Assembly (NCBI RefSeq): GCF_000148385.1 | Contig: NC_014537.1 | Coordinates: 1,350,001 to 1,382,000 of the forward strand | Source: Vulcanisaeta distributa DSM 14429 | Lineage (GTDB): Archaea > Thermoproteota > Thermoprotei > Thermoproteales > Thermocladiaceae | Reading direction: 5' to 3' | Length of the DNA stretch: 32,000 nt | In this document: positions 2 through 26,001 of the stretch, piece by piece | Layout: each line of letters starts with the position of its first letter | Position numbering within the stretch: the stretch's first letter is position 1 | The notes under the pieces: model-generated | Databases searched by the model: none | What the model was told of the DNA's origin: nothing | The model's input: the letters and a program-made list of their open reading frames with translations, nothing else | Position numbers and translations under genes: made by a program

Positions 2-1525
2 AGTACTGTATGTATACCATCAGGCACGTACAGTCTCATTATACTGAATGTGACAATAATGGAGACCGGCGGTCCTCAGTACGATAGGGCATTCTACATA
101 TTCGCCAATGGAGTACCAGTATTTTGGGGTTCAACGCAGGAGATACTGAATTCATCGGCTTGGTCTGACCTAACAATCTTTGAGAACATGCTCTCCGGCT
201 CATGCATAACCTTCAAGGCGTTACTACCCAATTGGATTGTGCCAAGCATAGGCGTCACAGGCTATTACATAGTCAACGTGACACTTTATCTATACCCAGG
301 GCCTGAACCCAACGGCTTACCTAATTACTTCATACCAATTGCGCCTAATTCCTATGGGGTATCCCTAATAGGGCTTAATCCATTCCATGATAAGGTAACG
401 TTAATAACAAACATACCCAGTGGGACGTATAGGGCTGTGCTGCTCATGTACATGGAGGGCGGTGAATTAGATGAATTCTGGTACACGAATGAGCCTGCCA
501 CCCGCGAACTCCTTGTTTACTATAATAATTACCTGGCTGCCGTCTTTAACCCATTCGAGACCATATACACTGGAGGTATTGACCCATTCATGTGGAAGCC
601 TATGCCATCAATAAACACATTGTCATTTCATAACCCATACATGGCCGACATAACGCCATTACTTGCTACGGGCATTAACGACGTTAATATTACATTGACT
701 ATGACGAACCTATACGAGGCATACGAATTGACGGGACTGCCCTACTTCACCTGGACAGTATCAGGAGTACTCATGCTATGGGTTAACGAATCGAACCCAA
801 TGGTTAGTGGTCAATTAATAACTGCATACTCAAGCTTCTACGATTCCGGACCTATCTTCTCAACAACATCCACGGGCTTAACAGAATATATGGAGTATGG
901 CAATTATACGCTGAATTACGTATCGAGACTAGTCTTTGAGCACGGCATTGAAGTGGCATCCTTCGAGCAGTCCGGCGTGTTTAATGCCTATCAATTATTT
1001 AATGTTGTAATGGAATATGGTATATTAAGCGAGAACTTCACTGAGTCATCATCTGAGAACATAAATGGCGCCGACCTATTCACAATGAGCCTCGCCTATA
1101 AGTACCCAATAATATTTAACGTAACCGCCTACGTAACACCACTGGCGCCGCCAACCTCATACCCATACCCAGCCGCGTATATTCAGTATGCCACCGTTAA
1201 CCTAGGGATGGACGCACATGAACACTACTCATTACCGGGCATGGACTATAAGACTGACGTACTCGAGTCCCTTAACTCCTACGGCTTCATGAACCTGACC
1301 CTACAAATAATCAATCCGTACGGAGGCGCAGTAGTCACTGGAATATCCGGCAACTACGCTAGGACAAGTAAGGACTTAATAGCTGTGCACACATACTCAT
1401 ACCCAACGGGTATATCCAGTTACCTAGAGAAGTTCAGTGCGTTAGCGATATCGCCAAATGCCACGGACTTAATCGGTTATTATCAATACGTAATGCTGAG
1501 GTTAATGAGAATAGGCAGCGGCTGA
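2..1525 (+). CDS. Secreted/surface glycoprotein, possibly PNGase-A-like (peptide N-glycanase A family); 5' end cut by window edge
   Basis: The reading frame is open from base 2, with no stop before the GTG at 50 used by the ORF track, so the gene probably starts upstream of the window. There are many N-x-S/T sequons. The blocks GGPQYDRAFYIFANGVPVFWGSTQE and YMEGGELDEFWYTNEP resemble the conserved PNGase A blocks as I remember them. The family call is from memory only. Confidence 0.5.
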   Translation, partial: STVCIPSGTYSLIILNVTIMETGGPQYDRAFYIFANGVPVFWGSTQEILNSSAWSDLTIFENMLSGSCITFKALLPNWIVPSIGVTGYYIVNVTLYLYPGPEPNGLPNYFIPIAPNSYGVSLIGLNPFHDKVTLITNIPSGTYRAVLLMYMEGGELDEFWYTNEPATRELLVYYNNYLAAVFNPFETIYTGGIDPFMWKPMPSINTLSFHNPYMADITPLLATGINDVNITLTMTNLYEAYELTGLPYFTWTVSGVLMLWVNESNPMVSGQLITAYSSFYDSGPIFSTTSTGLTEYMEYGNYTLNYVSRLVFEHGIEVASFEQSGVFNAYQLFNVVMEYGILSENFTESSSENINGADLFTMSLAYKYPIIFNVTAYVTPLAPPTSYPYPAAYIQYATVNLGMDAHEHYSLPGMDYKTDVLESLNSYGFMNLTLQIINPYGGAVVTGISGNYARTSKDLIAVHTYSYPTGISSYLEKFSALAISPNATDLIGYYQYVMLRLMRIGSG

Positions 1526-1559
1526 TGAATTAATTAGGGCTAGAAATTCAAAGTCACAA

Positions 1560-1583
1560 CGAATTAGAAATAATTCTAATTCG
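1560..1583. repeat. Perfect 10-bp inverted repeat CGAATTAGAA-ATAA-TTCTAATTCG (hairpin or operator) just downstream of the glycoprotein gene
   Basis: Read directly from the sequence: positions 1560-1569 are the reverse complement of 1574-1583. It lies 35 nt after the stop at 1525 and about 55 nt before the next ORF. Confidence 0.6.
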
Positions 1584-1636
1584 AAACATAATTAATTAAT
1601 GCATATAAGGACATTGTTGTATAAGCATAATGGAGT

Positions 1637-1897
1637 ATGAATAAGACATTGGTTATTATAATTATGTCATTTGCAATATTGACAGTAATACTGGTAATGC
1701 TCACGCTCATTTACGGTATACCTGCAAAAACACTAAAACTACTCTTTATTGCCTTATTACCAGAAATAGAACGAACATACATACCTTCCACATGTCCCTA
1801 TTACGATGGTTATTGGTTCACAAACAATTATAACATTGCCACGATATTGAGATTAGGAAGTAACTCAATAATCGTTGGTAAGAACTCGATCATATAA
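1637..1897 (+). CDS. Hypothetical small membrane-anchored protein
   Basis: It has an N-terminal hydrophobic segment (LVIIIMSFAILTVILVMLTLIYGI) and sits in an AT-rich region. No family was recognised. It may be the 5' part of a frame-shifted gene (see findings). Confidence 0.4.
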   Translation: MNKTLVIIIMSFAILTVILVMLTLIYGIPAKTLKLLFIALLPEIERTYIPSTCPYYDGYWFTNNYNIATILRLGSNSIIVGKNSII

Positions 1898-1983
1898 TAG
1901 GTATTGATTACTCCTCTAAAGATACGTACACCTTCATAGTAAATAAGCCAAGAGGGGTATTAATATTCACGTACTTCCCAGGA

Positions 1984-2334
1984 ATGCTCTCACCAATCAT
2001 AATGCCTAATGTCAGTGGTACTATAAAAATTATGATCATAAACTCAACCCTATACTTAGCAGTAAATTCAAGCAAACCACTGAAACTTACTTACTCCTAC
2101 CTACCATACTCATTGGGTAATTACGTAAATATGTGCATAGACTCCCTAGCATGTATACCGGCGCATAATGTGTATGATGGGTATGTGTATGTCTACGTAT
2201 TCTTCATAGAACGAACATTAAATCAGAATCCGACATTAGGTATATACCTTATGTCGAACTGCATACTTTACGACCTAAGCAATTGTAACTATCACAGTAA
2301 AACGGTCTACATATACTTCAACAGGAATAGTTAA
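1984..2334 (+). CDS. Hypothetical protein (sequon-rich, probably extracellular)
   Basis: ORF only, no family recognised. Its frame stays open upstream to 1882 without a start codon. Confidence 0.4.
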   Translation: MLSPIIMPNVSGTIKIMIINSTLYLAVNSSKPLKLTYSYLPYSLGNYVNMCIDSLACIPAHNVYDGYVYVYVFFIERTLNQNPTLGIYLMSNCILYDLSNCNYHSKTVYIYFNRNS

Positions 2335-2427
2335 GGTCATTCGTGACCCCATCATCACCAGGTCAGTGGCGGCACAACCCAATCACTAAAGATAACCAGC
2401 ACAACTGGGTAATTAATCCTTAAGTCG

Positions 2428-2808
2428 TTATCCACTCATTAATTCTCTGATTAGGTTCTCGATTTTATTAATGGCGTAACTAACCTCATCTGGTTCGTAA
2501 ACGCCTTCGTAAAATGCCTCATCATGGAGAGTCCTCATTAAATCGCTGTATAATGCCCTTAAGTCTTCGCGACCAATCTCTCTGAGAATCCTCCTACGTT
2601 CACCGTGGTTCCTGGGGATTACCCCAGTCTTTCCGTAAATGAATGCGTTTATGGCTATGATTAATGCGAGGAATGCCTTGTCTGCTGCATTCCTGTATAG
2701 AAGCATATCCTTTAACCTGAGAGCTTTATCAAGCTCCTCCTTGGCATAGTTTAGAACCTCCAGCGCACTCATGAACATGGCACTCAAGGCATTACTCGAC
2801 ATCCCCAA
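2428..2808 (-). CDS. PaREP1/HEPN-like helical protein (divergent paralog)
   Basis: The segment LYRNAADKAFLALIIAINAF parallels the (Y/T)RNAAGKA(F/Y)Q motif of the three other paralogs in the window. A later RTLHDEAFYEG segment aligns with their LHQYQYNG block. Confidence 0.55.
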   Translation of the reverse strand: MGMSSNALSAMFMSALEVLNYAKEELDKALRLKDMLLYRNAADKAFLALIIAINAFIYGKTGVIPRNHGERRRILREIGREDLRALYSDLMRTLHDEAFYEGVYEPDEVSYAINKIENLIRELMSG

Positions 2809-2943
2809 GGCAAATTACTCATTGCGGTTTAAATAACTATCAGCCCTCCAGGTGCTCATCACCGCCTCTGGTGTCCCGACAGCCATCATCACCCATTAAT
2901 CCATTGCGTGGTAGCTTTATAAGGCGTTAGCAATGGTTACTCC

Positions 2944-3654
2944 GTGGTCAAGGTCTTTGTTGGAACGTCAGGGTGGCTCTACGACTGGAACCAGGATTCG
3001 ACCTTTGATTGGTATGTAAGGAACTCCGGGCTTAATGCCGTTGAACTCAATGCATCATTCTATAGATTCCCATTCAGGAACCAGGTGGCTTCCTGGGCTA
3101 GGAAGGGCGCTGGACTTAGGTGGGCTGTTAAGGTTCATAGGTACATAACCCACGTTAAGAGACTCAAGGAAGATGCCCTGGACACCTGGCGTAGGTTTAG
3201 GGACTTGTTTCAACCGCTTGATCCATACATAGATTTCTACCTATTTCAAATGCCCCCATCCTTCGCCTATAATGATGAGAGTATGGAGAGGATTAGAACA
3301 TTCGCCAGGGAAACAGGACTTGGCGCTAGGCTTGCCATTGAATTTCGCCACAAGAGCTGGTTCGGCAGTGAGGACGCCATTAATGAACTGAGGGGCTTAG
3401 GCATTACCGTAGTGTCTGTTGACGAGCCTGGTGTTACGTGGGTTAGGAGTACAAATGGCATTATTTATTTGAGGCTTCACGGTAGGACTGATTGGTATAT
3501 GTATGACTATGGTGAGGATGAGCTTAGGGACCTAGCGATTAAGGCTGTCTCCCTCAATCCTAATGCGATTTACGTGTTTTTCAATAATGACCACTGGATG
3601 CTTGAAAATGCCAGGAAGATGCTGGAGATACTAAGGGGATTAACAGGGGAGTGA
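2944..3654 (+). CDS. DUF72 (YecE-like) family protein
   Basis: DUF72 blocks are present: VGTSGWLYDW, NAVELNASFYRFP, LFQMPPSF, AIEFRHKSWF, LRLHGRTDWYMYDYGEDEL and IYVFFNND. The start is GTG, with a TATA-like gctttataagg about 20 nt upstream. Confidence 0.9.
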   Translation: MVKVFVGTSGWLYDWNQDSTFDWYVRNSGLNAVELNASFYRFPFRNQVASWARKGAGLRWAVKVHRYITHVKRLKEDALDTWRRFRDLFQPLDPYIDFYLFQMPPSFAYNDESMERIRTFARETGLGARLAIEFRHKSWFGSEDAINELRGLGITVVSVDEPGVTWVRSTNGIIYLRLHGRTDWYMYDYGEDELRDLAIKAVSLNPNAIYVFFNNDHWMLENARKMLEILRGLTGE

Positions 3655-3655
3655 G

Positions 3656-4861
3656 TTACCTGCTCGCCCTTGACAGCATTAATAGCCCTATGATTGCTAA
3701 GGTCACGCCGACGGCCATCATCACCACCATGCCTAAACCCATGGGGCTTATTAATCCAACGATCATTGGCGCCCAACCACCAATTAACAAGCCCCAGTTA
3801 TAGGATACGCCTAGCCCGCTTGCCCTGTATTGAACATCGAATTTATCAATTAATACGTATGGCACGAGACCCATCGCGAAGTTCTCGATGAACGCCAATA
3901 TTACCAGGTTTATGAAGTTTGGATATAGCAATAGGGCAATTGGTGCGTAGGCCAGTGAAATCATTAACGTGCCTATTATGAACCACCTATAACTAATTGC
4001 CAGGGCTAATGGACCAGCGAGGAGGACGGCTATTACTGCGGCTATTGTCGAGATTAGCATGACACTGGGTATTATGCTCGCTGCACCGATGACCTTTAGG
4101 AAGTCTGAGTATATCAGGTATGTGGAGTAGTAAATTGTCAGTAACCCACCCGTGAATAGTATGCCGTACCCAAGCCATGCACCTCCACGCTTGAATAACA
4201 ACGTCAGCGGGTTTGCCTTGGGCCTCGACCATAATGGCGACTCTACAAGCCTGCTCCTAATTATGAAGGCTAGAACCGCCACTACAGCTCCAGTACCCAT
4301 GTATATCCTCCAGCCATAGGCATTGAAGGGTATTGGCCCCATGTAGGTTAGGAACATGACATTGACCATTGTTGCTATGACAACCCCTATTGGGTAGCCA
4401 CTCTGTACGAATGCCGAAGTCACCTCCTTCCCCCACCTACTCCATTCCATAATCATTGCCGTACCAGGGCCCCACTCACCACCTAGGAATACTCCCTGGA
4501 GAAACCTTAACGCCAGTAGGGTTAATGGCGCGAGTACGCCTATGACTGCGTAAGTCGGTAATAGCGCTATTACTAGGGCTGATAGGCTGTAACCGAGGAC
4601 AGTTATTAACAGCCCAACCCTCCTACCAAACCTGTCACCCACGTAACCCATGATAACGGAGCCAAGCGGCCTACCAATAAGCGTAGCCACTAGCGTCGAT
4701 AAGCCACCAAGTAGGGAGTATGGTCCAGGGAAGAATAATTCGCCAAGTAACGGCATTATCGGCGTAACCAGAAGTGCGTCGTAACCATCCATGACCCAAC
4801 CAAGGTAGGCACTAATGATAGCCCTACGCCTAATAGACTCAAGGCTTCCCTGAATACTCAT
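3656..4861 (-). CDS. MFS transporter (metabolite:H+ symporter-like)
   Basis: It has about 12 hydrophobic segments and the MFS loop motif GYVGDRFGRRVGLL. Confidence 0.85.
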   Translation of the reverse strand: MSIQGSLESIRRRAIISAYLGWVMDGYDALLVTPIMPLLGELFFPGPYSLLGGLSTLVATLIGRPLGSVIMGYVGDRFGRRVGLLITVLGYSLSALVIALLPTYAVIGVLAPLTLLALRFLQGVFLGGEWGPGTAMIMEWSRWGKEVTSAFVQSGYPIGVVIATMVNVMFLTYMGPIPFNAYGWRIYMGTGAVVAVLAFIIRSRLVESPLWSRPKANPLTLLFKRGGAWLGYGILFTGGLLTIYYSTYLIYSDFLKVIGAASIIPSVMLISTIAAVIAVLLAGPLALAISYRWFIIGTLMISLAYAPIALLLYPNFINLVILAFIENFAMGLVPYVLIDKFDVQYRASGLGVSYNWGLLIGGWAPMIVGLISPMGLGMVVMMAVGVTLAIIGLLMLSRASR

Positions 4862-4916
4862 ACGCTAACCAGGTACGTATCGGCTATTTAAGCTATTTGC
4901 TATTTCGTACCATGTA

Positions 4917-5858
4917 TTATATTGAGAGAGGTGGGTATATTCGAGCTATTATCATTGATACTATGAAGATTATTAAAAGGATTAACCTGACACTGAAGGG
5001 ACCAGCCCACAGATTCCTAAGCTCCCTCCACCTACTTCTGACCACGTTCTCATCACCACTGAGTAACGGACCCGCCAATCTCAGTGTGCGTGGAATAAGT
5101 AATAACGATACCAGTGAAATGTAGGGTAAGTAATGCAGGATTGCTGAGATCACGATGGCTAAGTACATGAGGGCTATTGATGTGTAGACTACGTACCTCG
5201 TATTCCTAATGCCCACGAGTAATACAAGCGTTATCTTACCCACAGTCCTGCACGCATCAATCTCTAGGGCGCCTGAGCCGATTAGTATTAATAGCGTAAA
5301 TAATCCGTTTGGTATACCGACGATTAATGGTGCTGGGTTTGCGTAGATGCCCGTCTGGACGATGTACGAGCCCCAGGTAACGAGAGGCCCCATGGCAAGT
5401 GCCGCAAGCACCTCGCCATAGCCCCTATAGTGGAATTTCAATGGTGGTATGCTGTAACCAACGCCAATTATTAAGCCGGCCATGGCTAGTATTAACACGG
5501 GCAAACCCACTAGGGTAAAGAGGTAAACCCCCGCCATAAAGGCTATCGCTAGGAATACATAACCTACGGTAATAACATCCCTAGGGCTCAATTTAAGGTC
5601 TATTATTGGGTGAGGTCTATGGGAGAAGCCACTGGCCCTGTACAGTATGTCTACGCCACTTAGGTAATCGTAATAGTCATGTACCAGGTTAACCCCTGCC
5701 TGGGCCAGTAGTAGAGCCGCCAGCGTTATTACGTAGATTATTGGATTGAACCTATCATTTAAGTACCAGGCCAATGCGGTGCCTAGGGTCACGGACGAGA
5801 AGGCGCTCGTTAACGTTGTCGGGCTGAATGACATTAACCAGGTCTTAATACCCATCAT
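4917..5858 (-). CDS. UbiA-family aromatic prenyltransferase (MenA-like)
   Basis: A polytopic membrane protein with the Asp-rich motif NLVHDYYDYLSGVD and a second EIDACRTVGKITL block typical of MenA/UbiA enzymes. Confidence 0.8.
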   Translation of the reverse strand: MMGIKTWLMSFSPTTLTSAFSSVTLGTALAWYLNDRFNPIIYVITLAALLLAQAGVNLVHDYYDYLSGVDILYRASGFSHRPHPIIDLKLSPRDVITVGYVFLAIAFMAGVYLFTLVGLPVLILAMAGLIIGVGYSIPPLKFHYRGYGEVLAALAMGPLVTWGSYIVQTGIYANPAPLIVGIPNGLFTLLILIGSGALEIDACRTVGKITLVLLVGIRNTRYVVYTSIALMYLAIVISAILHYLPYISLVSLLLIPRTLRLAGPLLSGDENVVRSRWRELRNLWAGPFSVRLILLIIFIVSMIIARIYPPLSI

Positions 5859-5936
5859 ATCATGATAGCCACGAATACATTTTAAGGATTTCCATAGAGG
5901 AAACCGTTATTTGCCCCAATATGCGTTGTTCTTTAG

Positions 5937-7364
5937 GTGGCTATTAAGGACCTCAGAACCTTCATTAGGGCCCTGGAGGAAAGGAGGGACCTCGTCAGGA
6001 TAAGTGAACCACTTAGTGTTGATCTCGAGGTTGCTGCATTACTGAGGGAGTTGATGTATAGGGGTGGTCCTGCCGTAATAATCGAGAGGACCAGGGAGGG
6101 CACATTGCCAATAGTCGGCAATCTATTTGGTAAGTGGGATAGGGTGATGCTCGCCATGGAAGGTAACGACCCAGAGACCGCAGCCTCTAAATTAACGGAC
6201 CTACTAAATCTTAGGATTCCCCAGGGATTGTTCGACGCCTTAAAATCCCTGAATGAGTTGAGGAGGTTTTCGCAGTACTTCCCTAGGAGTGTTAATGATG
6301 GGCCAGTTAGGGAGGTTGAGTGGAGTAACATTGATTTAACGAAGATACCTGCCATCAGGCAGTGGGTTCATGAGCCTGGTAGGTTCATTACCTTTGGGAT
6401 AACGTTCGTTAAATACGGCAACTACAGGAACTTTGGCTACTATAGGCTGCAGGTGGTTGGTAGGGATAGGTTCGTGATGCATTGGCAGCCTTGGCGCAGG
6501 AGTGCAATGTATGGAGAGCTTAGTGAGAAGGCGGAGGTTGCTGTTGTCTTTGGTCCTGACCCAGTGACGATGCTTATGGCAGGCATTTCAATACCGCATC
6601 CACTGGATAAGCTCCTGGTCACTGGGGTGCTTAGGGGCGAGGGTGTTGAGTTGGTGAGAGGTTCGACCGTGGATGTTGAGTACCCAGCAAATGCGGAGTT
6701 GGTTATCGAGGGTGAATTGACCGGTGAATACGTTAGGGAGGGACCGTTTGGCGACCACGTGGGTGTTTACTCAATAGCCAAGGAGTACCCTGTGGTTAAG
6801 GTTAAGGCCATTTACTCTAGGAGGGATCCCTTGATACCCGTCACGGTCACTGGGAGGCCTGTGCTCGAGGATGGGAACATAATTAGGTTTGGAACGAGGG
6901 TTGTGAAACCCCTCCTAAAGCAAATACTCCCTGAGCTGGTGGATATTGAAATACCGCCCGAGGGCTTGGGCTACGTAATCATTACATCGATTAGGAAGAG
7001 GTACCCTGGACACGCCAGGAGGGTTATGACGGCATTATGGGGCTTAGTACCTGTACTGGGTAAGGTCGTGATTGTGGTGGATCATGACGTGGACGTCAGG
7101 GATTGGGGTCAGGTAATGTACGCGGTGGCTGCTCACGTTAATCCATCGAGGGACATACTCATAATTGATAATTACCCAGTGGAGGAGCTCGACCCATCAA
7201 CGCCAGTTCCAAACCTGGGTAGTAAGGTTGGCATTGACGCAACTAGGAAGCTCCCCGAGGAGTATGGTGGTAAGGAATACCCGATGGATGTTACGGCGCC
7301 TAGCGACGTAATTGACAGGGTTAGGAGGATCGTGGATTCAATCATGGGCAGGTCAAGGAATTGA
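5937..7364 (+). CDS. UbiD-family (prenyl-FMN dependent) aromatic acid decarboxylase
   Basis: The N-terminus DLRTFIRALEERRDLVRISEPLSVDLEVAAL, the length (475 aa) and the GPFGDHVG block are typical of UbiD. The start is GTG. It is divergent from the UbiA-family gene. Confidence 0.9.
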   Translation: MAIKDLRTFIRALEERRDLVRISEPLSVDLEVAALLRELMYRGGPAVIIERTREGTLPIVGNLFGKWDRVMLAMEGNDPETAASKLTDLLNLRIPQGLFDALKSLNELRRFSQYFPRSVNDGPVREVEWSNIDLTKIPAIRQWVHEPGRFITFGITFVKYGNYRNFGYYRLQVVGRDRFVMHWQPWRRSAMYGELSEKAEVAVVFGPDPVTMLMAGISIPHPLDKLLVTGVLRGEGVELVRGSTVDVEYPANAELVIEGELTGEYVREGPFGDHVGVYSIAKEYPVVKVKAIYSRRDPLIPVTVTGRPVLEDGNIIRFGTRVVKPLLKQILPELVDIEIPPEGLGYVIITSIRKRYPGHARRVMTALWGLVPVLGKVVIVVDHDVDVRDWGQVMYAVAAHVNPSRDILIIDNYPVEELDPSTPVPNLGSKVGIDATRKLPEEYGGKEYPMDVTAPSDVIDRVRRIVDSIMGRSRN

Positions 7365-7402
7365 CGATATGCATATTTAGGGCTTAAGACAGTAACTGGG
7401 TA

Positions 7403-8236
7403 ATGAGGGCGTGCATAATCGGTTTAGGTAGGATGGGTAGGGGTATGGCTATTAATCTCGTTAGTAGGGGCCACGTGGTCTACGGCTATGACATCAATAA
7501 GTCCATATATGCAGCCTTAAGTAATGCCGGTGTGAAGACTGTGGATAGTGTGGGACAGTGCGGTGATGCTGATTACGTAGTCCTCGCATTACCCACTGGT
7601 AGGGAGTCTGCCCAGGTACTGAGTGAATTAAGTACTAACGCTGTGATAGTAGACACAACCACGATGAGTCTGGCGGAGCTTGAGCAGGTACTCTCCATAG
7701 TCCGTAACAGGGGGTTTAGGTACATAACCGCCAGGCTTGAAGGTGGGCCGAAACAAGCCGAGAGCGGATCTCTCGTGATGTTTATTGGTGGTGATGAGCA
7801 ATTGTATAAGCAGTCAGAGGAATTCCTTAGGCAATTGGGCACCCCGATCTACATTGGCACCCACGAGCAAGCCACATTACTTAAGTTAATCAGTACGTCA
7901 ATAATCATAGCCAACACCATGATACTAGCCGAACTATCACCGTTGATGAAGGATGTTGGTCTAGACACGAATACCCTAGTCAAGGCGCTAAGCATGAGTG
8001 GAGCCGACTCGGCGCAGTTAAGGGCTAGGCTACCCTGGATACTAAGCGGTAACTACCCAGAGTCCTTCTCAATAGACCTCGCGAAATACGTGATTGACGA
8101 AACAATAAAGCACTCAATGAGTAAGGGCAGGTCATTACCAATAATGACCATAATCGATAAACTCCTTGAGATAGCCAGGAGTGAAGGTAAAGGGAGGGGA
8201 GACTTCTCCGAAGCGGCCGAGATCCTAAAGAAGTAA
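7403..8236 (+). CDS. NAD(P)-dependent beta-hydroxyacid dehydrogenase (3-hydroxyisobutyrate/6-phosphogluconate dehydrogenase-like)
   Basis: N-terminal Rossmann motif IIGLGRMGRGMAINL; size and overall pattern fit the HIBADH family. Confidence 0.85.
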   Translation: MRACIIGLGRMGRGMAINLVSRGHVVYGYDINKSIYAALSNAGVKTVDSVGQCGDADYVVLALPTGRESAQVLSELSTNAVIVDTTTMSLAELEQVLSIVRNRGFRYITARLEGGPKQAESGSLVMFIGGDEQLYKQSEEFLRQLGTPIYIGTHEQATLLKLISTSIIIANTMILAELSPLMKDVGLDTNTLVKALSMSGADSAQLRARLPWILSGNYPESFSIDLAKYVIDETIKHSMSKGRSLPIMTIIDKLLEIARSEGKGRGDFSEAAEILKK

Positions 8237-8287
8237 ATTCTGAAGTGCAAGGATGCATTACGTTAAATCCTTAACCGGAGCGCCCGG

Positions 8288-8887
8288 CTAATCCTTTTTC
8301 AATAAGTTAATTATAGACCGTATTTCGCCTTCGGAATTTAATACCTCATTGACATTGCCGGATTTAGAAATTAAAATACCCAGGTCGTGATAAAAGTCAT
8401 GCAGGTTAGGCCAGTAATCAATACCTCCTAGACCCAACACATCTCTATATTTCCAGACCACATACATTGCCAGGTAAGCCTTCTTCTTACTATCCTCATT
8501 CCCGCTTTCACTCTCCAGGAGCATCATTATTAATTTATCACGTTGTTTATCCCTAAGCATCCCTTGGACAACTTCGAAGATCAACTCATCAATGTTCCTA
8601 TGATTCAAATAATGCATTATAGCTCCATTACATGAAATACCCCTTGCATCACCATCAAGCAATACATGAACCTCAATCTTAATATCGGGCTTATCTTGAA
8701 TAATCGTATTAACCCGTTCACATACATTATCCTTACCGCCGCCCTCGCATATACAGGTATTCTCAGACTCTCCATAATAGCAATCATATTTAATACCATC
8801 GCACTTCCTCAAAGTCCTAATTCCTAAAAGGCCAAGGATAAATTTAAGATCACTTTTACCCTCCACGAAAATTATCCGCTTAATCAT
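8288..8887 (-). CDS. TOPRIM-like (DUF4435/OLD C-terminal-like) putative nuclease
   Basis: IIFVEGKSDLKF carries the TOPRIM glutamate. It is followed by CEGGGKDNV and a VLLDGDA (DxD) motif. The likely start is the ATG at 8887-8885, which forms an ATGA overlap with the upstream ATPase stop. The ORF track starts two codons earlier at a TTG (8893). Confidence 0.6.
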   Translation of the reverse strand: MIKRIIFVEGKSDLKFILGLLGIRTLRKCDGIKYDCYYGESENTCICEGGGKDNVCERVNTIIQDKPDIKIEVHVLLDGDARGISCNGAIMHYLNHRNIDELIFEVVQGMLRDKQRDKLIMMLLESESGNEDSKKKAYLAMYVVWKYRDVLGLGGIDYWPNLHDFYHDLGILISKSGNVNEVLNSEGEIRSIINLLKKD

Positions 8888-9933
8888 AGGCAATTACCCC
8901 TTAAATCCTCATTAAGCTCCCCAACTCTTCTACTTGCCTCCCTACCATCGTAAATCCTCAATAAGCCCCTTGCGTTACTTTCAATTACTAACAATTCATC
9001 TAAATCCACATTATTTAACATTGCATTAAGCATTTCGCTACTTTGCGTAGTGATTATCCACTGAACATCCTTAGTATCACTCATTAATTCAGCAACCTTA
9101 TTCATTAACCATGGATGCATATGTAACTCCACATTATCATACATCACTATCTCCCTCGATGCGGCAAGGACCATTAATGCCAAGCCTAAGTAACCACTGC
9201 CAAGATACTGTATTGGCCTCTCCCCATCCTTCACAACAAAGACTATGTTATGCTTATCAAACTCATCCGGCTTAAGCCCCATGAAACTTATCTCAACACC
9301 CTCGAAGACCTTATTAAACAGTTTAATGGCTTTGGCGTAATCAACAATCTTCATTAATGAACCAATGAATTGCGGTGTTAATGGATTGGGCGTTGATAGT
9401 GCTATGAAGTCGTAGTTAACGCCATCAATCTTATTAACAGTAATATTAATGCTGTATTGAACTTGCTGTGGAAACATGCTCACCGGTATTACGTCAACCC
9501 TGAGGAAACCCCTCTTGTTTCCTTTTTCAGCAATTGCAGCCTTGGTGAATGGGTTCACAGGCATTAATGGTTGTGCTGAAAATGATGGCTGTTGAAGCTT
9601 AATTAGTTCTTCAATACTTGTGGTCTTGACCTCCACGTCATCAACCATGAGCTTGAATCCGTCGTTCAAGAGCCTATAAAGCCAAAATTCATCCATCCTA
9701 AGGGTTGAAGCCACGGTAAATAGGGATTGTGCACGACTTGGGTCAGTCAGCATCAGTAATGATGCTGCTAATGCCTCGAGTATTGAGGTTTTAAATGAGC
9801 CGTTGCAGCCGGTCAATACGTTAACTCTGCTAAGTGTAAGCTCATTATTTAAACCGCCAGATTTGCCTTTAACACTAACATTAAACTTTCTTCTCCTAAT
9901 CTCCTCAATCATGATCCTCTTAATATGAGCCAT
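8884..9933 (-). CDS. ABC/SMC-like ATPase (AAA_15/AAA_21-type) with substituted catalytic motifs
   Basis: P-loop LTGCNGSFKTSILEAL; signature-like YLGSGYLGLALMVL; Walker B IVMYDNVELHMHP (family-typical DE is DN here); H-loop IITTQSS (usual H is Q). A GAGGT Shine-Dalgarno-like element lies 5-9 nt before the ATG. Confidence 0.7.
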   Translation of the reverse strand: MAHIKRIMIEEIRRRKFNVSVKGKSGGLNNELTLSRVNVLTGCNGSFKTSILEALAASLLMLTDPSRAQSLFTVASTLRMDEFWLYRLLNDGFKLMVDDVEVKTTSIEELIKLQQPSFSAQPLMPVNPFTKAAIAEKGNKRGFLRVDVIPVSMFPQQVQYSINITVNKIDGVNYDFIALSTPNPLTPQFIGSLMKIVDYAKAIKLFNKVFEGVEISFMGLKPDEFDKHNIVFVVKDGERPIQYLGSGYLGLALMVLAASREIVMYDNVELHMHPWLMNKVAELMSDTKDVQWIITTQSSEMLNAMLNNVDLDELLVIESNARGLLRIYDGREASRRVGELNEDLRGNCL

Positions 9934-10068
9934 TAAACCTCACACAATTAAAGTAGTATCATTATGCTATACTATAAAGTTTTAATCCTAACCTTAATCA
10001 TAACTATGCCGTATTTCACGATCATACTCATCTCTTAATCTTAGAAAGCGTCGAAACGATGACCGTGT

Positions 10069-10176
10069 TGGTGCCGGGGCCGGGATTTGAACCCGGGCCC
10101 CCTTGCGGGGACGGACTTTAAGGTTCCCTGCGGAATCTCCAGGCCCGCGCCTTGGACCTGGCTCGGCCACCCCGGC
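10069..10176 (-). tRNA. tRNA-Ser (anticodon GGA), class II, with an approximately 19-nt anticodon-loop intron and encoded CCA
   Basis: Hand fold of the minus strand. Acceptor GCCGGGG/CCCCGGC. Three-bp D stem. Anticodon stem CGGGC/GUCCG. Loop CUGGAG[intron AUUCCGCAGGGAACCUUAA]A. Long variable arm CCCCGCAAGGGG. T arm CCGGG-UUCAAAU-CCCGG. Discriminator A, then CCA. Confidence 0.85.
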
Positions 10177-10200
10177 AAACCAACAAACCATTAACTGCGA

Positions 10201-10206
10201 TTTAAA
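10201..10206 (-). promoter_or_regulatory. TATA box (TTTAAA) for the tRNA-Ser gene
   Basis: It lies 25-30 nt upstream of the tRNA 5' end at 10176 on the minus strand, which is the canonical archaeal promoter spacing. Confidence 0.5.
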
Positions 10207-10221
10207 GCTTTCCTTCATGGA

Positions 10222-11112
10222 CTATGTCCTTACCATCGACCTTTCGATCTCCAATTCCTTCCTAAATATTGATAGTGCATGATCTATATCATTGAGCGGT
10301 ATTCCTAATAATTCAATTGCTCTCTTATTACTTAGGCTACTGTCCCTTGGTCTTCGGGCTTTGTAATTAACATCACTTAGCTTTATTGGTTTTATTAACT
10401 CCTCGTTAAATCCGAAGTGTCTGGCTATGGCCTTTGCGAACTCATACCTACTTAGTCTTGGTCCAACTACGTGTATTATTCCGCTAAATCTCATGTCTAA
10501 TAACTTCACGAAGGCTTCACCAATTATTGTGTTTAATGTTGGTGATGACCACTGATCAGTTATTGCCGTGACCACCTCACCCCTCATCAACTTCTCGACC
10601 ACGGTCTTGCCAAAGTTGGCTCTCCCTGGCCCCGTGCCATAAATCCAGGCAACCCTAATTATGGAACCACCCAATGCTCTTGTGATCTCCTCCGCCATTA
10701 GCTTTGTTAATCCGTAATAATTAACGGGTCTTGGCGCATCATCCTCCGAGTACATACCCCTCTCACCATCAAATACGTAGTCCGTGGATAGGTAGTAAAT
10801 GGCCGAGCCGCTCCTATACGCAGCAGTGAGCAAGTCCCTGCTGGCCACCACGTTAACCCTATAACAAAGCTCTAGCTGCTCCTCGCACTGGTCGACGTTG
10901 CCTATTGCGGCCATGTGTATAACCACGTCGGGCTTATAATCGTTAATTAATCTAGCGGAATCCCTGGTTATGTCGGCCTTAACCACGGTGACGCCGGGTA
11001 TGTTGATGGGGTGCTCATTATAGGTGCCAATAACCTCATACTTATTAACTAGGCTAATGGCTGTTTTATACCCAGGTGATGAACTAACACCAGTAATTAA
11101 TACGATCATCAT
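10222..11112 (-). CDS. rmlD: dTDP-4-dehydrorhamnose reductase
   Basis: N-terminal nucleotide-binding VLITGVSSSPG, the RmlD block YLSTDYVFDG, and a length of about 296 aa. Confidence 0.85.
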   Translation of the reverse strand: MMIVLITGVSSSPGYKTAISLVNKYEVIGTYNEHPINIPGVTVVKADITRDSARLINDYKPDVVIHMAAIGNVDQCEEQLELCYRVNVVASRDLLTAAYRSGSAIYYLSTDYVFDGERGMYSEDDAPRPVNYYGLTKLMAEEITRALGGSIIRVAWIYGTGPGRANFGKTVVEKLMRGEVVTAITDQWSSPTLNTIIGEAFVKLLDMRFSGIIHVVGPRLSRYEFAKAIARHFGFNEELIKPIKLSDVNYKARRPRDSSLSNKRAIELLGIPLNDIDHALSIFRKELEIERSMVRT

Positions 11113-11439: not shown

Positions 11440-12525
11440 ATGTTATTTAGTATCGAACCTAAGAGCAGGAGAGAGGATCTCTATGATTTTAATCATGAAC
11501 TGGAAATGCTTATGAGGTTCTTAAGGAGTTCGAGGTTAACGTTAGTTACTGGCCTTAGGAGGACTGGTAAGACATCGCTATTAAAGGTTGCACTTAATGA
11601 GGCTGGCATTGATTATGTATACGTAGACGTCAGGCTTAGCTTGTACGCAAGTTACCGTGACGTAATTGACTTATTCATACAGGCACTTAATGAACTTCTG
11701 CGTAGGAGGTCCTCGATTAGGGATAAGATAATTAATGCACTTAGAGGTATCGAGGGCCTAAGGATTTCCGTTAACCCGCCTGAAATTTCGGTTAGGTTTA
11801 GGGGTAAGCCACGGGTTAGTGTTGCCGACCTGCTCATTAGGCTTAATGAGGTTGGTGGGCCTGTGATAATAGCGATTGATGAGGCCCAGGAGTTGAGGAG
11901 GGTTAATTGGCTTAGGTTTGATAGGTTATTTGCTTACATCTTTGATAACTTGCCGAACATAAGGCTGGCACTATCGGGTTCGCAGGTCGGTCTCCTTTAC
12001 GACTTCCTTGGGCTTCACGACCCGAAGGCGCCACTCTTCGGTAGGGCGTACGTGGAGGTTAAGACGAGGAAGCTAAGCCCTGACGAGTCTCTCGACTTCC
12101 TTGAGCGAGGCTTTAACCAATTAGGCATTAACTGCCCTAAGAACGTCCTCGAGAGGGCCGTGGAGACTTTCGATGGTATTATTGGTTGGTTAACGTACTT
12201 CGGCTATACATACTCAATGAGAAGGTCTGCTGACTTTGATGAAATAATGAAGGATGCGGTACAATTGGCGCTTAATGAGTTACGAAACCTAGTTTCCTCG
12301 CTTAGGAGTGTTAGGTATGCCGTGATTTTAAGGGTGTTGGCTAGGGAACCAATGCCCTGGAGGTTAATTAAGCGTAGGCTTGAGGATTATGAAGGCAGGG
12401 AAATAAATGCCGCAACGGTTTCCGAATTACTGGGTAATCTAGTGGACCTGGGCATTGTCGAGAAGGCTGATGATTACTATAGGATTTCCGACCCAGTGTA
12501 CAGGCTCGCTGCCGAGTACCTGTAA
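11440..12525 (+). CDS. Archaeal ATPase family protein (Arch_ATPase, AAA+ with C-terminal wHTH)
   Basis: Walker A GLRRTGKTSLLK and Walker B IIAIDEAQEL. The C-terminal winged-helix-like tail (VSELLGNLVDLGIVEK) is typical of the PF01637/DUF234 architecture. Confidence 0.8.
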   Translation: MLFSIEPKSRREDLYDFNHELEMLMRFLRSSRLTLVTGLRRTGKTSLLKVALNEAGIDYVYVDVRLSLYASYRDVIDLFIQALNELLRRRSSIRDKIINALRGIEGLRISVNPPEISVRFRGKPRVSVADLLIRLNEVGGPVIIAIDEAQELRRVNWLRFDRLFAYIFDNLPNIRLALSGSQVGLLYDFLGLHDPKAPLFGRAYVEVKTRKLSPDESLDFLERGFNQLGINCPKNVLERAVETFDGIIGWLTYFGYTYSMRRSADFDEIMKDAVQLALNELRNLVSSLRSVRYAVILRVLAREPMPWRLIKRRLEDYEGREINAATVSELLGNLVDLGIVEKADDYYRISDPVYRLAAEYL

Positions 12526-13819: not shown

Positions 13820-14299
13820 ATGCAGGAGTTGCCTAAGCCTTGGTTTGACCTTGATGGTTATAGGAGGACTAGGTTGCTTGAGGCTAGGTATGAGGCTGAG
13901 TTGGCTAGGAGGTTCCTTGATGAAGGGTTGACTAGGAACGCGGCTGGCAAGGCTTATCAAGCATGGAAGGCTCTTGTGGCTGCATTTGCGGCTGAGAATA
14001 GAGATAAGCTTAAGGATGTATTTAAGGGTGTGGTTAGGCTGAGGGGCAATAGGGTTATTAATAAGGTTGACTGGATCATCGCCTTAATGCCAAGCAATGC
14101 GCTGAAGCGGGTATCGCAGGTGATAGGCGGTGACATTAATGTATATACAAACCTAGCAATAATGCTTCATCAGTATCAATACAATGGGCCGGATAAACAG
14201 GGAATACTCAGCCAGTACTGGGATGATGAATCGGCTAAGGCGGACATCGTGCAGTTATTAAGCGTTATTGACAGGTTATTACGTGAGAAAGGAATCTAA
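13820..14299 (+). CDS. PaREP1 family protein (HEPN-like helical protein)
   Basis: Motifs TRNAAGKAYQAWKALVAAFAA and LHQYQYNGPD are shared with the paralogs at 26304-26813 and 31244-31726. Confidence 0.8.
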   Translation: MQELPKPWFDLDGYRRTRLLEARYEAELARRFLDEGLTRNAAGKAYQAWKALVAAFAAENRDKLKDVFKGVVRLRGNRVINKVDWIIALMPSNALKRVSQVIGGDINVYTNLAIMLHQYQYNGPDKQGILSQYWDDESAKADIVQLLSVIDRLLREKGI

Positions 14300-17216: not shown

Positions 17217-17253
17217 TTCACGTAAGAAGTCTCAATTACTTTTCCGTTCTCAC

Positions 17254-17282
17254 CGTAAAAATAAATAATCTATATTTTTACG
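17254..17282. repeat. Perfect 10-bp inverted repeat CGTAAAAATA-N9-TATTTTTACG between narJ and the ferredoxin gene
   Basis: Read directly: 17254-17263 is the reverse complement of 17273-17282. Confidence 0.6.
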
Positions 17283-17295
17283 AGAAACTGATCGC

Positions 17296-24937: not shown

Positions 24938-25049
24938 ATATGATTTTTCGACCTTTTATTTTTTTCCTAAAATAGGAAGAACCAAAATACTTTGATAAAT
25001 ACCGTGCATATTGATATGAATTTAAATAATTATAAAAATATATAAATCA

Positions 25050-25067
25050 ATGCATAAATATGCATAA
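25050..25067. promoter_or_regulatory. Tandem ATGCATAA repeats at 10-bp phasing in the narK/hemerythrin divergent promoter region
   Basis: ATGCATAA occurs at 25050-25057 and 25060-25067. A third TGCATA is at 25005-25010, and TTGATA occurs at 24992 and 25011. Confidence 0.35.
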
Positions 25068-25183
25068 TAATTCAATCACGACCTCGTTAAGGGCTCCTGT
25101 GACGTTTTTCGTAAGTGTGTGCGTGCATTGTCACGAAATTAAATTATTTAATTATCCTCCAGCTGTCTCACATCTGATTGCGT

Positions 25184-25729: not shown

Positions 25730-25734
25730 ACAAC

Positions 25735-25965: not shown

Positions 25966-26001
25966 TTTAATTAACGTAGCTCTGCAACTAATTCATACCC
26001 T

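What the first reader, a model, noticed from the sequence alone, without database searches (positions are those of the whole stretch)
8288..9933. Two-gene ABC-type ATPase + TOPRIM module (split OLD / PARIS / Gabija-like) with substituted catalytic residues, beside tRNA-Ser
**Gene pair.** Two minus-strand genes are translationally coupled through an ATGA overlap at 8884-8887.

**Upstream product.** It has the layout of AAA_15/AAA_21 ABC-like ATPases: N-terminal strand, P-loop, signature-like LGSGYLGL, Walker B, H-loop.

**Downstream product.** At about 199 aa, it carries the TOPRIM hallmarks: a conserved Glu in FVEGKSD, a GGGK turn, and DxD in LLDGDA.

**Known parallels.** ATPase+TOPRIM is the architecture of OLD-family nucleases, Gabija GajA (fused form) and PARIS AriA/AriB (split form, with a DUF4435 TOPRIM effector). 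All of these are bacterial anti-phage systems. I am not aware of a characterised hyperthermophilic crenarchaeal counterpart.

**Unusual motifs.** The ATPase motifs are atypical at three positions at once. The P-loop is GCNGSFKT (F where the family has G). Walker B is DN instead of DE. The H-loop is Q instead of H. This pattern suggests a nucleotide-binding sensor or scaffold rather than a fast hydrolase.

**Context.** The pair is visibly more AT-rich than its neighbours: my hand counts of single 60-nt lines give about 33-42% GC inside, against about 47% in the adjacent dehydrogenase gene. It is wedged between a housekeeping gene and a tRNA gene, which fits an accessory islet.
Basis: partly seen in the sequence, partly recalled or inferred. 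Interest (0 to 1): 0.8.

Follow-up and report, generated by a model that had tools for sequence, protein, structure and literature searches.

The report
Split ATPase-like plus TOPRIM nuclease islet
A small two-gene cassette in the hot-spring archaeon Vulcanisaeta distributa pairs a catalytically crippled ABC "ATPase" with a TOPRIM nuclease; it is strain-specific and resembles bacterial anti-virus modules such as OLD, PARIS and AbiL, but belongs to none of the named families.

Summary
Window 8884..9933(-) encodes a 349-aa AAA_21/AAA_15 ABC-type ATPase. Window 8288..8887(-) encodes a 199-aa protein that overlaps it by ATGA. An intron-containing tRNA-Ser(GGA) lies 138 bp upstream.

The small protein is a TOPRIM domain plus a helical domain. 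The AF2 model has pLDDT 92, and its two best PDB fold matches are OLD-nuclease C-terminal regions. E9, G51/K52 and D78xD80 are conserved. Its sequence scores against OLD-like_TOPRIM, DUF3226 and DUF4435 all fall below the curated cut-offs.

In all 14 relatives checked, the ATPase has Phe/Tyr in the P-loop and Gln for the H-loop His. The Walker B Glu is Asn, or Thr in one relative. These look like conserved family traits rather than decay.

The pair is a rare family found only in Thermoproteales and Sulfolobales: 16 hits among 1.84 billion representative proteins. The two genes are adjacent in 15 loci, each with different flanks. Three other Vulcanisaeta genomes share the flanking synteny but lack the pair. 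GC is 39.6% against 46.3% for the window.

My best reading is an accessory OLD-like split module, probably for defence or abortive infection. A non-hydrolysing nucleotide-binding subunit would restrain or license the nuclease. I rate it a new variant of a known kind, of moderate interest.

The parts
8884..9933 (-). ABC-type (AAA_21/AAA_15, SMC/Rad50/PtuA-like head) ATPase-like subunit, 349 aa. Motifs: P-loop GCNGSFKT (res 42-49), signature-like LGSG (244-247), Walker B D266-N267, D-loop/ELHMHP, H-loop position Q297, invariant C-terminal EDLRGxC.
   Evidence: Pfam AAA_21 scores 38.2 bits, above the gathering score of 27. The AF2 model has pLDDT 87. Foldseek matches SMC, Rad50 and PtuA heads at E 2e-9 to 6e-7. 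Family conservation is shown.
8288..8887 (-). TOPRIM plus helical-domain protein, 199 aa, the predicted metal-dependent nuclease effector. Key residues: E9-G10..D13 after beta1, G49-G-G-K52-D53 after beta2, D78-G-D80 after beta3, N98-L-D100-E101 at the start of the first helix of the helical domain, and D132-S-K134-x-K136.
   Evidence: The AF2 model has pLDDT 92.4 and pTM 0.89, with TOPRIM strand/helix order. Foldseek top hits are 6njv (E 1.1e-3, prob 0.99) and 6nk8_B. Pfam OLD-like_TOPRIM scores 20.4 bits, DUF3226 18.5 and DUF4435 16.3, all below their cut-offs. Invariant residues are listed.
8884..8887 (-). ATGA stop/start overlap coupling the two genes.
   Evidence: Read directly from the sequence. 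The same tight junction, overlapping or directly abutting, appears in Pyrobaculum, Thermocladium, Stygiolobus, HS-7, Saccharolobus MAGs and metagenome loci.
9934..10071 (-). AT-rich leader between the tRNA 3' end and the ATPase start. A TTTATA at 9978-9973 and GTGAGGT at 9944-9938 are read as a possible archaeal TATA box and ribosome-binding site (inference only).
   Evidence: Sequence. This 138-bp stretch has no counterpart in the three Vulcanisaeta relatives.
10072..10176 (-). Intron-containing tRNA-Ser(GGA). It marks the landmark and hot-spot border of the islet and is not part of the module.
   Evidence: Rfam RF00005 at 44.3 bits. Conserved at 83-99% identity in relatives L007-L009.
8237..10071 (.). 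Strain-specific islet: the whole dehydrogenase-stop to tRNA-3'-end interval, 1.83 kb.
   Evidence: Collinearity with L007, L008 and L009 stops at window position 8229-8239 and resumes at 10066-10069. The same interval is 133 bp in L007. In L008 and L009 it is 1.69 kb of unrelated cargo.

Best explanation
The two genes form a self-contained, horizontally mobile module of the 'ABC-ATPase + TOPRIM nuclease' (OLD-like, split) kind. It sits in a variable slot next to tRNA-Ser in Vulcanisaeta distributa.

Shown:
- The large subunit has an SMC/Rad50/PtuA-type ABC head.
- The small subunit has a TOPRIM fold followed by a helical domain, with the full acidic and lysine motif set conserved.
- The genes are always adjacent and co-inherited.
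- The pair is sporadic and strain-specific.

Inferred:
- The two proteins form a complex.
- The ATPase-like subunit keeps the P-loop Lys/Thr, the Walker B Asp and the signature motif. It lacks the catalytic Glu (Asn or Thr instead), the H-loop His (Gln) and the second P-loop Gly (Phe or Tyr). It would therefore bind nucleotide, or act as a scaffold, without meaningful hydrolysis.
- In that state it holds the TOPRIM nuclease inactive until a virus-related cue releases or activates it. The cue could be a viral trigger protein or a fall in nucleotide levels.
- The nuclease then cuts nucleic acid with two metal ions and arrests the infected cell. I lean slightly to DNA nicking or cleavage, as in OLD and GajA, over tRNA cleavage, as in AriB.

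Rough confidence by step: architecture and identity 0.85, defence or abortive-infection role 0.6, non-hydrolysing sensor mechanism 0.35.
For: ATPase fold and family.

TOPRIM fold:
- The model has pLDDT 92.4 with beta1-E, beta2-G and beta3-DxD topology.
- The top two PDB hits are OLD C-terminal regions.
- Seven of 14 family members hit OLD-like_TOPRIM and seven hit DUF3226; four hit Toprim.
- Distant member P0025 passes the OLD-like_TOPRIM gathering score, 24.3 against 23.2.

Conserved residues: over 16 sequences down to 30% identity, G51, K52, D78, D80, D132, K134 and K136 are invariant, and E9, G10, D53, N98, L99 and D100 are nearly so. These positions parallel the BpOLD catalytic set E400/E404/D455/D457/T506-E508/K562 (PMC6755086) and AriB E26/D30/D88/E90 (PMC11464382).

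Pair conservation: 15 loci have the ATPase directly upstream of the TOPRIM gene.

Substitutions as a family trait: GCNG[STA][FY]KT and QW..[ST]TQS occur in every locus checked, and Walker B is D-N in the members examined except for one D-T. PDB entries of PtuA include the engineered Walker B D-Q version of the same motif.

Accessory status:
- The pair is absent from three Vulcanisaeta genomes that share the flanks.
- GC is low.
- Flanks elsewhere carry PaREP1, PIN/VapB, MazE and transposase remnants.

Precedent: GajA has no ATPase activity, and its ATPase-like domain senses nucleotides (PMC8136825).
Against: - No experiment exists for this family.
- Sequence similarity of the window's small protein to every TOPRIM model is below the curated thresholds. 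Foldseek E-values are marginal (1e-3 and 8e-3) with TM 0.41-0.45.
- I could not inspect model coordinates or a residue-level superposition. The mapping onto OLD catalytic residues therefore rests on sequence order and predicted secondary structure only.
- A bulky Phe/Tyr at the P-loop Gly position could abolish nucleotide binding altogether, which would make the subunit a pure scaffold.
- Defence is inferred from architecture and context. No known defence genes such as CRISPR or R-M genes flank the pair in the window. No virus or plasmid copies were found.
- No att repeats or integrase mark the islet.
Confidence: 0.6

Rival explanations
1. A selfish toxin-antitoxin (addiction) module with no antiviral role. 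The TOPRIM protein is the toxin and the ATPase-like protein a type II-style protein antitoxin. The module persists because losing it kills the cell.
For: The operon is tightly coupled and two-gene. In other genomes it sits among PIN/VapB and MazE loci and PaREP1 genes. Pfam describes AAA_21 as 'putative AbiEii toxin, Type IV TA system'. PARIS itself is described as behaving like a type II TA system (PMC13064643).
Against: TA and abortive-infection defence are not mutually exclusive. All characterised ATPase+TOPRIM pairs (PARIS, AbiL) protect against phage. A 349-aa ABC head with conserved nucleotide-pocket residues is elaborate for a plain antitoxin.
Confidence: 0.2
2. A housekeeping DNA-repair, chromatin or cell-cycle factor of the RecF/RecN/Rad50 or Cran1 type.
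For: Weak N-terminal hits to SMC_N, RecF and Rad50. The best Foldseek hits include SMC and Rad50 heads. Cran1 shows that an archaeal OLD-family protein can have a cell-cycle role (PMC12796447).
Against: The pair is absent from three Vulcanisaeta relatives with conserved flanks. Only 16 relatives exist among 1.84 billion representatives. Flanks differ in every genome. There is no coiled coil. The ATPase catalytic residues are substituted, whereas those of Cran1 are canonical. Cran1's own dataset lists a different Stygiolobus protein and no Vulcanisaeta, Thermocladium or Pyrobaculum entries.
Confidence: 0.05
3. The small protein uses the TOPRIM fold for binding rather than cleavage, as RecR does. 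Alternatively, the cassette is a decaying, non-functional remnant whose ATPase is simply dead.
For: Three catalytic ATPase residues are substituted. TOPRIM sequence scores are sub-threshold. Degraded copies exist: the P. ferrireducens fragment P0023, the partial L030 copy and the solo ATPase in L004.
Against: The same substitutions are kept across members sharing only 30-70% identity, with intact ORFs in 14 or more loci. That indicates purifying selection, not decay. All metal-ligand-type acidic residues and two lysines of the small protein are invariant.
Confidence: 0.1

Closest known systems
PARIS (AriA/AriB; 'class 4' split OLD-like system)
   Same: It is a two-gene operon with the ABC ATPase of the AAA_15/21 kind first and a separate TOPRIM nuclease second. 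The E..(+4 acidic)..DxD/E metal-site layout matches (AriB E26/D30/D88/E90; PMC11464382). A sequester-and-release logic is plausible here too.
   Different: AriB is a 35-kDa DUF4435 protein. Here DUF4435 scores 16.3 bits against a cut-off of 27, and PADLOC AriB gives E 8.5e-3. AriA is 55 kDa with helical and coiled-coil insertions and needs ATP hydrolysis. Here the ATPase is 349 aa with a beta-rich insertion and has N, Q and F at the catalytic positions. PARIS is reported as restricted to bacteria (PMC12796447). This family is found only in Thermoproteales and Sulfolobales.
OLD-family nucleases, especially class 2 C-terminal regions (BpOLD 6NK8, XccOLD 6NJV) and GajA of Gabija
   Same: These are the best structural matches of the small protein. 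They share the TOPRIM plus helical domain layout, with an acidic residue at the start of the first helix and a conserved Lys in a later helix. GajA's ATPase-like domain does not hydrolyse ATP and acts as a nucleotide sensor (PMC8136825), which is the closest functional precedent for the substituted ATPase here.
   Different: Those proteins are single fused polypeptides of about 580 aa with canonical Walker B Glu and H-loop His. Gabija needs an adjacent UvrD-like GajB, and none is present here. The sequence score to OLD-like_TOPRIM is below the cut-off for the window protein.
AbiL (AbiLi/AbiLii) and RloAB-type two-gene ATPase+TOPRIM systems
   Same: The split architecture is the same. The PADLOC AbiLi model (340 positions) aligns over nearly the whole ATPase, residues 34-307, at E 6e-10. 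AbiLii is also reported to superpose on OLD 6NJV (PMC13064643).
   Different: The small protein gives no AbiLii or RloB hit. Those systems are bacterial. No degenerate ATPase motifs are reported for them.
Cran1 ('class 5' OLD family, Sulfolobales)
   Same: It is a crenarchaeal ABC ATPase plus TOPRIM protein.
   Different: It is fused, vertically inherited and essential. It has canonical ATPase motifs with measured ATPase and nickase activity, and it is apparently not a defence protein (PMC12796447). The present pair is split, sporadic and motif-substituted. Stygiolobus caldivivus carries both, as separate genes.
PADLOC candidate PDC-M38 (A+B), MADS mad3/mad4, and Pfam DUF3226 / PDB 2P62 (PH0156)
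   Same: The ATPase hits PDC-M38A at 1.6e-10 and MADS3 at 2.4e-5. The small protein hits mad4 at 2e-4. Distant family member P0027 hits PDC-M38B at 2e-7. The family profile weakly matches archaeal PH0156 (VEGKTD..GK..DVD; E 0.12).
   Different: All hits are weak or partial. The other MADS genes are absent. The PDC-M38 hits are split between the window ATPase and a distant member's partner. I found no paper mentioning PDC-M38 or DUF3226.

Membership tests
OLD-like ABC-ATPase + TOPRIM superfamily (broad sense) | ABC-type ATPase head of the AAA_15/AAA_21 kind | tested here: met
   AAA_21 scores 38.2 bits against a gathering score of 27; AAA_15 scores 30.8 against 32.1. Foldseek matches SMC, Rad50 and PtuA heads at E about 1e-9 to 1e-7.
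OLD-like ABC-ATPase + TOPRIM superfamily (broad sense) | TOPRIM domain with an invariant Glu after beta1, a Gly after beta2 and a DxD after beta3 | tested here: met
   The motifs sit at the predicted strand ends in a pLDDT-92 model and are conserved in 16 sequences. The top PDB fold hits are OLD C-terminal regions. Caveat: Pfam OLD-like_TOPRIM scores 20.4 bits, below the gathering score of 23.2, for the window protein, and 24.3 for distant member P0025.
OLD family classes 1-3 and 5 (P2 Old, GajA, retron-associated, Cran1) | ATPase and TOPRIM fused in one polypeptide | tested here: not met
   There are two ORFs with an ATGA overlap. The genes are also split in all 15 related loci.
OLD family (catalytically active ATPase, e.g. 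TsOLD, Cran1) | Canonical P-loop GxxxxGK[ST], Walker B D-E and H-loop His | tested here: not met
   The corresponding residues are F47, N267 and Q297, as aligned to PtuA. They are conserved family-wide.
PARIS (AriA/AriB) | The effector is a DUF4435 (PF14491) TOPRIM protein of about 35 kDa | tested here: not met
   DUF4435 scores 16.3 bits against a gathering score of 27. Only 1 of 14 family members hits it. PADLOC AriB gives E 8.5e-3. The protein is 199 aa, about 23 kDa.
PARIS (AriA/AriB) | AriA-type 55-kDa ATPase with helical insertions, whose ATP hydrolysis is required | tested here: not met
   The ATPase is 349 aa. The PADLOC AriA hit covers only residues 236-303. The insertion is beta-rich. 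The Walker B Glu is absent.
PARIS (AriA/AriB) | Activated by viral anti-restriction proteins; the effector cleaves tRNA | not testable with these tools
   This needs biochemistry and virus challenge.
Gabija (GajA/GajB) | Adjacent UvrD-like helicase GajB | tested here: not met
   The flanks are a dehydrogenase gene and tRNA-Ser. No helicase sits next to the pair in the related loci either. The only one seen is a DEAD-box gene 2.5 kb away in L019.
AbiL (AbiLi/AbiLii) | AbiLi-type ATPase | tested here: inconclusive
   PADLOC AbiLi gives E 6e-10, aligning residues 34-307 to profile positions 21-298 of 340. No curated threshold is available, and PtuA models score slightly better.
AbiL (AbiLi/AbiLii) | AbiLii/RloB-type partner | tested here: not met
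   The small protein and its family give no AbiLii or RloB hit at E <= 1 (window protein) or <= 0.1 (family).
Septu / retron PtuAB | PtuA ATPase with an HNH nuclease PtuB partner | tested here: not met
   NCBIfam PtuA scores 36.4 bits against a cut-off of 500. The partner is a TOPRIM protein, not an HNH nuclease.
MADS (mad1-8) | MAD3 ATPase and mad4 together with the methyltransferase and other MADS genes | tested here: not met
   MADS3 scores 23.7 bits against a cut-off of 420. mad4 gives E 2e-4. No methyltransferase or other MADS genes lie in the islet.

The most novel reading that the evidence does not exclude
This is a previously unclassified, crenarchaeon-specific class of split OLD-like immune module. 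Its ABC subunit would be a naturally hydrolysis-dead, 'EQ-mutant-like' nucleotide or trigger sensor. It would gate a compact TOPRIM nuclease and provide abortive-infection immunity against viruses of hyperthermophilic archaea. It would be a mechanistic hybrid of PARIS (split, sequestering) and GajA (nucleotide sensing without hydrolysis).
Probability: 0.3. Interest if true: 0.6.

Novelty: new variant of a known kind. Interest (0 to 1): 0.45.

Why it matters
ABC-ATPase plus TOPRIM modules (OLD, Gabija, PARIS, AbiL, retron effectors) are a major theme in bacterial immunity. In archaea, the only characterised OLD-family protein (Cran1) turned out not to be a defence protein, and split 'class 4' systems are reported as bacteria-only.

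This cassette is a compact, split, sporadically distributed archaeal relative. Its ATPase active site is systematically disabled by evolution. If it works as proposed, it would give a natural test of whether ATP binding alone, without hydrolysis, can regulate a TOPRIM effector.

It would also provide a tractable candidate antiviral system for Sulfolobales model organisms, because orthologues exist in Saccharolobus, Acidianus and Stygiolobus. Current PADLOC, Pfam and NCBIfam models assign the pair to no named system, and its TOPRIM partner scores below every curated cut-off.

Tried and rejected
- ARAGORN found no tRNA. It was superseded by Rfam, because the gene carries an intron.
- The family profile (A3) found no PDB sequence at E <= 10. 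The extended profile (A6) found only a non-significant match to PH0156/2P62.
- BFVD viral folds gave nothing meaningful.
- Neither subunit has a relative in IMG/VR viral contigs or PLSDB plasmids.
- I looked for att-like direct repeats of the tRNA 3' part bounding the islet and found none, only short chance repeats.
- I looked for a conserved third gene. The retropepsin-like aspartyl protease genes near the pair in Pyrobaculum and in the Saccharolobus MAGs do not cross-match and are absent from the other loci. Other neighbours are locus-specific.
- I considered a RecF/Rad50/Cran1-type housekeeping role and rejected it on distribution.
- I considered membership of PARIS, Gabija, Septu or MADS and rejected each on its defining features (see the membership table).
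- Literature searches for PDC-M38 and DUF3226 returned nothing. The archaeal 'dark matter' paper does not mention Toprim or OLD pairs.
Full report
**1. What is in the sequence**

The window comes from Vulcanisaeta distributa. Both proteins match NCBI entries from a 2,374,137-bp contig at 100% identity.

The stop codon of the first and the start codon of the second share ATGA at 8887-8884.

ARAGORN reported no tRNA. Rfam finds one at 10072..10176(-), scoring 44.3 bits against a gathering score of 29. Read directly, it has an anticodon loop CU-GGA-GA, an intron of about 19 nt and a long variable arm. It is therefore an intron-containing tRNA-Ser(GGA), 138 bp upstream of the ATPase start.

The pair is 39.55% GC against 46.3% for the window. 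That puts it in the lowest 1.7% of same-size windows. Its GC3 values of 0.40 and 0.43 are the lowest of 29 ORFs, and the adjacent dehydrogenase gene is 48.3% GC.

**2. The large subunit**

Pfam AAA_21 is above threshold at 38.2 bits against 27. AAA_15 is just below at 30.8 against 32.1. PADLOC gives weak hits to many ATPases of two-component defence systems:
- PtuA, E 4e-12
- PDC-M38A, E 1.6e-10
- AbiLi, E 6e-10, covering almost the full length
- AriA, E 1e-9
- GajA, E 7e-7

NCBIfam scores are far below every equivalog cut-off.

An AF2 model (pLDDT 87, pTM 0.89) has an ABC head with a beta-rich insertion rather than a coiled coil. Foldseek matches SMC, Rad50 and PtuA heads at E 2e-9 to 6e-7.

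A profile alignment to PtuA chains in the PDB lines up three motifs:

| This protein | PtuA | Position affected |
|---|---|---|
| GCNGSFKTS | GNNGKGKTS | second P-loop Gly becomes Phe |
| YDNVELHLHP | IDEIELHLHP | Walker B Glu becomes Asn |
| IITTQS | IITTHS | H-loop His becomes Gln |

The same PDB set contains engineered D-Q versions of the PtuA Walker B motif.

The three substitutions are conserved. In every related locus examined, from both Thermoproteales and Sulfolobales, the P-loop is GCNG[STA][FY]KT and the H-loop position is Gln. Walker B is D-N, with one exception of D-T in the most distant member. K48, T49, D266, the LGSG signature-like motif and a C-terminal EDLRGxC motif are invariant.

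**3. The small subunit**

Sequence evidence is weak but consistent. For the window protein, all hits cover only residues 3-82:
- OLD-like_TOPRIM, 20.4 bits (gathering score 23.2)
- DUF3226, 18.5 bits
- DUF4435, 16.3 bits (gathering score 27)

Across 14 family members, seven hit OLD-like_TOPRIM, seven hit DUF3226 and four hit Toprim. One distant member, P0025, passes the OLD-like_TOPRIM cut-off at 24.3 bits. PADLOC gives mad4 at 2e-4, AriB at 8.5e-3, weak GajA hits for 8 of 14 members, and PDC-M38B at 2e-7 for distant member P0027.

The AF2 model is confident, with pLDDT 92.4 and pTM 0.89. It shows TOPRIM topology:
- beta1 (residues 4-8) is followed by E9-G10
- beta2 (44-48) is followed by GGGK(D)
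- beta3 (72-77) is followed by D78-G-D80
- beta4 (90-93) follows
- an all-helical domain spans residues 99-196

The two best Foldseek matches in the PDB are the C-terminal regions of class 2 OLD nucleases: 6NJV (E 1.1e-3, prob 0.99) and 6NK8 (E 8e-3, prob 0.98). Everything below them is generic Rossmann-like small GTPases.

In a 16-sequence alignment reaching down to 30% identity, G51, K52, D78, D80, D132, K134 and K136 are invariant. E9, G10, D53, N98, L99 and D100 are nearly invariant. By sequence order and predicted secondary structure, this parallels two known catalytic sets:
- The BpOLD set: E400, E404 at +4, D455xD457, T506/E508 at the start of the first helix of the helical domain, and K562 in a later helix (PMC6755086).
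- The AriB set: E26, D30, D88 and E90 (PMC11464382).

I could not inspect coordinates, so this mapping is an inference.

**4. Distribution and linkage**

The small-protein family is tiny. A word-indexed search found 4 proteins and a profile search found 14. An exhaustive HMMER pass over 1.84 billion representatives found only 16 at E <= 1e-3.

Named sources are Vulcanisaeta distributa, Thermocladium modestius, two Pyrobaculum species (one copy degraded), Acidianus infernus, Stygiolobus caldivivus, Sulfolobales archaeon HS-7 and Saccharolobus MAGs. The remainder are unnamed metagenome or MAG sequences.

In 15 loci the ATPase gene lies directly upstream of the TOPRIM gene, overlapping or abutting it. 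One locus has a solo ATPase (L004). Two carry TOPRIM fragments (L030 and P0023). Identities of the two subunits to the window proteins rise and fall together, which indicates co-inheritance.

The flanks differ in every genome. They often carry PaREP1, PIN/VapB, MazE, transposase remnants or other AAA ATPases. No third gene is conserved. No copy was found on viral contigs or plasmids.

**5. The islet test**

Three other Vulcanisaeta genomes (JCM 11217, JCM 16159, JCM 11216) are collinear with window positions 1375-8239, covering UbiD and the dehydrogenase. They match again at the tRNA, 10066-10215. None encodes either protein.

The interval from dehydrogenase to tRNA-Ser differs among the four genomes:
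- JCM 11217: 133 bp
- The other two relatives: about 1.69 kb of unrelated cargo encoding a predicted membrane-anchored protein
- The window: 1.83 kb carrying the pair, with even the tRNA-proximal 138 bp unrelated to the relatives

The slot is therefore a replacement hot spot and the pair is strain-specific. No att-type repeat or integrase was found, so the insertion mechanism is unknown.

In other hosts the pair's GC tracks the host, from 30% to 57%, and is lower than the flanks in 7 of 11 loci.

**6. Interpretation**

The architecture is that of the split ABC-ATPase plus TOPRIM systems (PARIS, AbiL, RloAB), which are relatives of the fused OLD and GajA nucleases. Membership of each named family fails on a defining feature:
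- DUF4435/AriB and AriA size and insertions (PARIS)
- Fusion and an adjacent GajB helicase (Gabija)
- An HNH partner (Septu)
- Equivalog cut-offs (PtuA, MADS3)
- Fusion, essentiality and canonical motifs (Cran1)

The recent OLD-family survey states that classes 3 and 4 are restricted to bacteria. The held text of its dataset lists no Vulcanisaeta, Thermocladium or Pyrobaculum entries. Its Stygiolobus caldivivus entry is a different, class 5 protein (PMC12796447).

I therefore read the pair as a new, crenarchaeon-restricted variant of a known kind.

The conserved loss of the catalytic Glu and His, together with retention of the Lys/Thr, Asp and signature residues, suggests nucleotide binding or scaffolding without hydrolysis. 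The closest precedent is GajA, which has no ATPase activity and uses its ATPase-like domain to sense nucleotides (PMC8136825).

The proposed mechanism is that the ATPase-like dimer restrains the TOPRIM nuclease until a viral cue or nucleotide depletion releases it. This is inferred, not shown. An aromatic residue at the P-loop Gly position could instead abolish nucleotide binding altogether.

**7. Verdict**

Membership in any named system is not supported.
- The sensor hypothesis is plausible but untested.
- Interest is moderate. The architecture itself is familiar. The archaeal restriction, the compact size and the evolutionarily fixed 'dead' ATPase site make it a worthwhile experimental candidate.

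Noticed in passing
window 10072-10176 (-): The tRNA-Ser(GGA) carries an intron of about 19 nt next to the anticodon and encodes its CCA end. ARAGORN missed it entirely, while Rfam scored it at 44.3 bits.
   Followed up: partly
window 10216-32000 vs L007/L008/L009: Collinearity with the three Vulcanisaeta relatives also ends about 40 bp beyond the 5' side of the tRNA. Their next genes, a 177-aa protein and a polyprenyl synthetase, have no blastn match (E <= 1e-10) anywhere in the window. The window instead has an RmlD-like reductase (10222-11112), an ATPase_2+MCM_C-wHTH protein (11440-12525), a radical SAM protein and a PaREP1 gene (13820-14299). The tRNA-Ser therefore sits at a two-sided synteny break.
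   Followed up: partly
L008 6877-8440 and L009 (same slot): In two relatives the dehydrogenase to tRNA-Ser slot holds different cargo. These are minus-strand ORFs of 300 aa (N-terminal hydrophobic anchor) and 147 aa, possibly one frameshifted gene. They are 78-83% identical between the two strains and have host-like GC (0.456). L007 keeps only a remnant of about 90 bp around the start of that gene.
   Followed up: partly
window 8288-8887 (-), residues C36, C47, C56, C86: Four cysteines are conserved in nearly all close family members (C86 invariant; C36, C47 and C56 at 90% or more). In the three most distant members, three of them (C47, C56, C86) are replaced together. This suggests two disulfides or a metal site specific to the core clade.
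   Followed up: no
window 8884-9933 (-), residues C43 and C348: The ATPase has an invariant Cys inside the P-loop (GCNG). It has a second invariant Cys as the last or second-to-last residue, within an invariant EDLRGxC tail. I have no explanation for either.
   Followed up: no
L001 7014-7811; P0023: The Pyrobaculum sp. 3827-6 partner has a Pro/Gln-rich C-terminal extension of about 70 aa (265 aa in total). The Pyrobaculum ferrireducens homologue (P0023, 156 aa) lacks the whole TOPRIM N-terminal half and looks like a decayed copy.
   Followed up: no
L004 4120-6933: A metagenomic contig has a solo copy of the substituted ATPase with no TOPRIM partner. It lies next to a VapB gene and a second ATPase with a canonical motif (VGPNGAGKS; AAA_15/SMC_N), amid three PaREP1 genes and a PIN gene. 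This looks like an archaeal defence or TA island.
   Followed up: no
window 1500-2250, 17250-17750, 24750-26250, 30750-31250: Other low-GC patches (0.33-0.38) exist in the window. One covers the NarJ-like chaperone gene 17296-17808 (GC 0.368) inside an otherwise ordinary narGHJI-type nitrate reductase cluster (17296-23602). Low GC alone is therefore not specific to foreign DNA here.
   Followed up: partly
PDB 2P62 (PH0156, Pyrococcus horikoshii): The extended family profile weakly matches this structural-genomics 'hypothetical protein' (E 0.12). The shared motifs are VEGKTD, GK and D-x-D. This match, together with the recurrent DUF3226 Pfam hits, may point to a wider uncharacterised group of small archaeal TOPRIM proteins.
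   Followed up: no
L001 7797-8141 (-); L020 4025-4387 (-): Small retropepsin-like aspartyl protease genes (PF13650/PF13975) lie next to the pair in Pyrobaculum and in the Saccharolobus MAGs. They do not cross-match at E 1e-3 and are absent from the other loci, so this is probably coincidence.
   Followed up: yes
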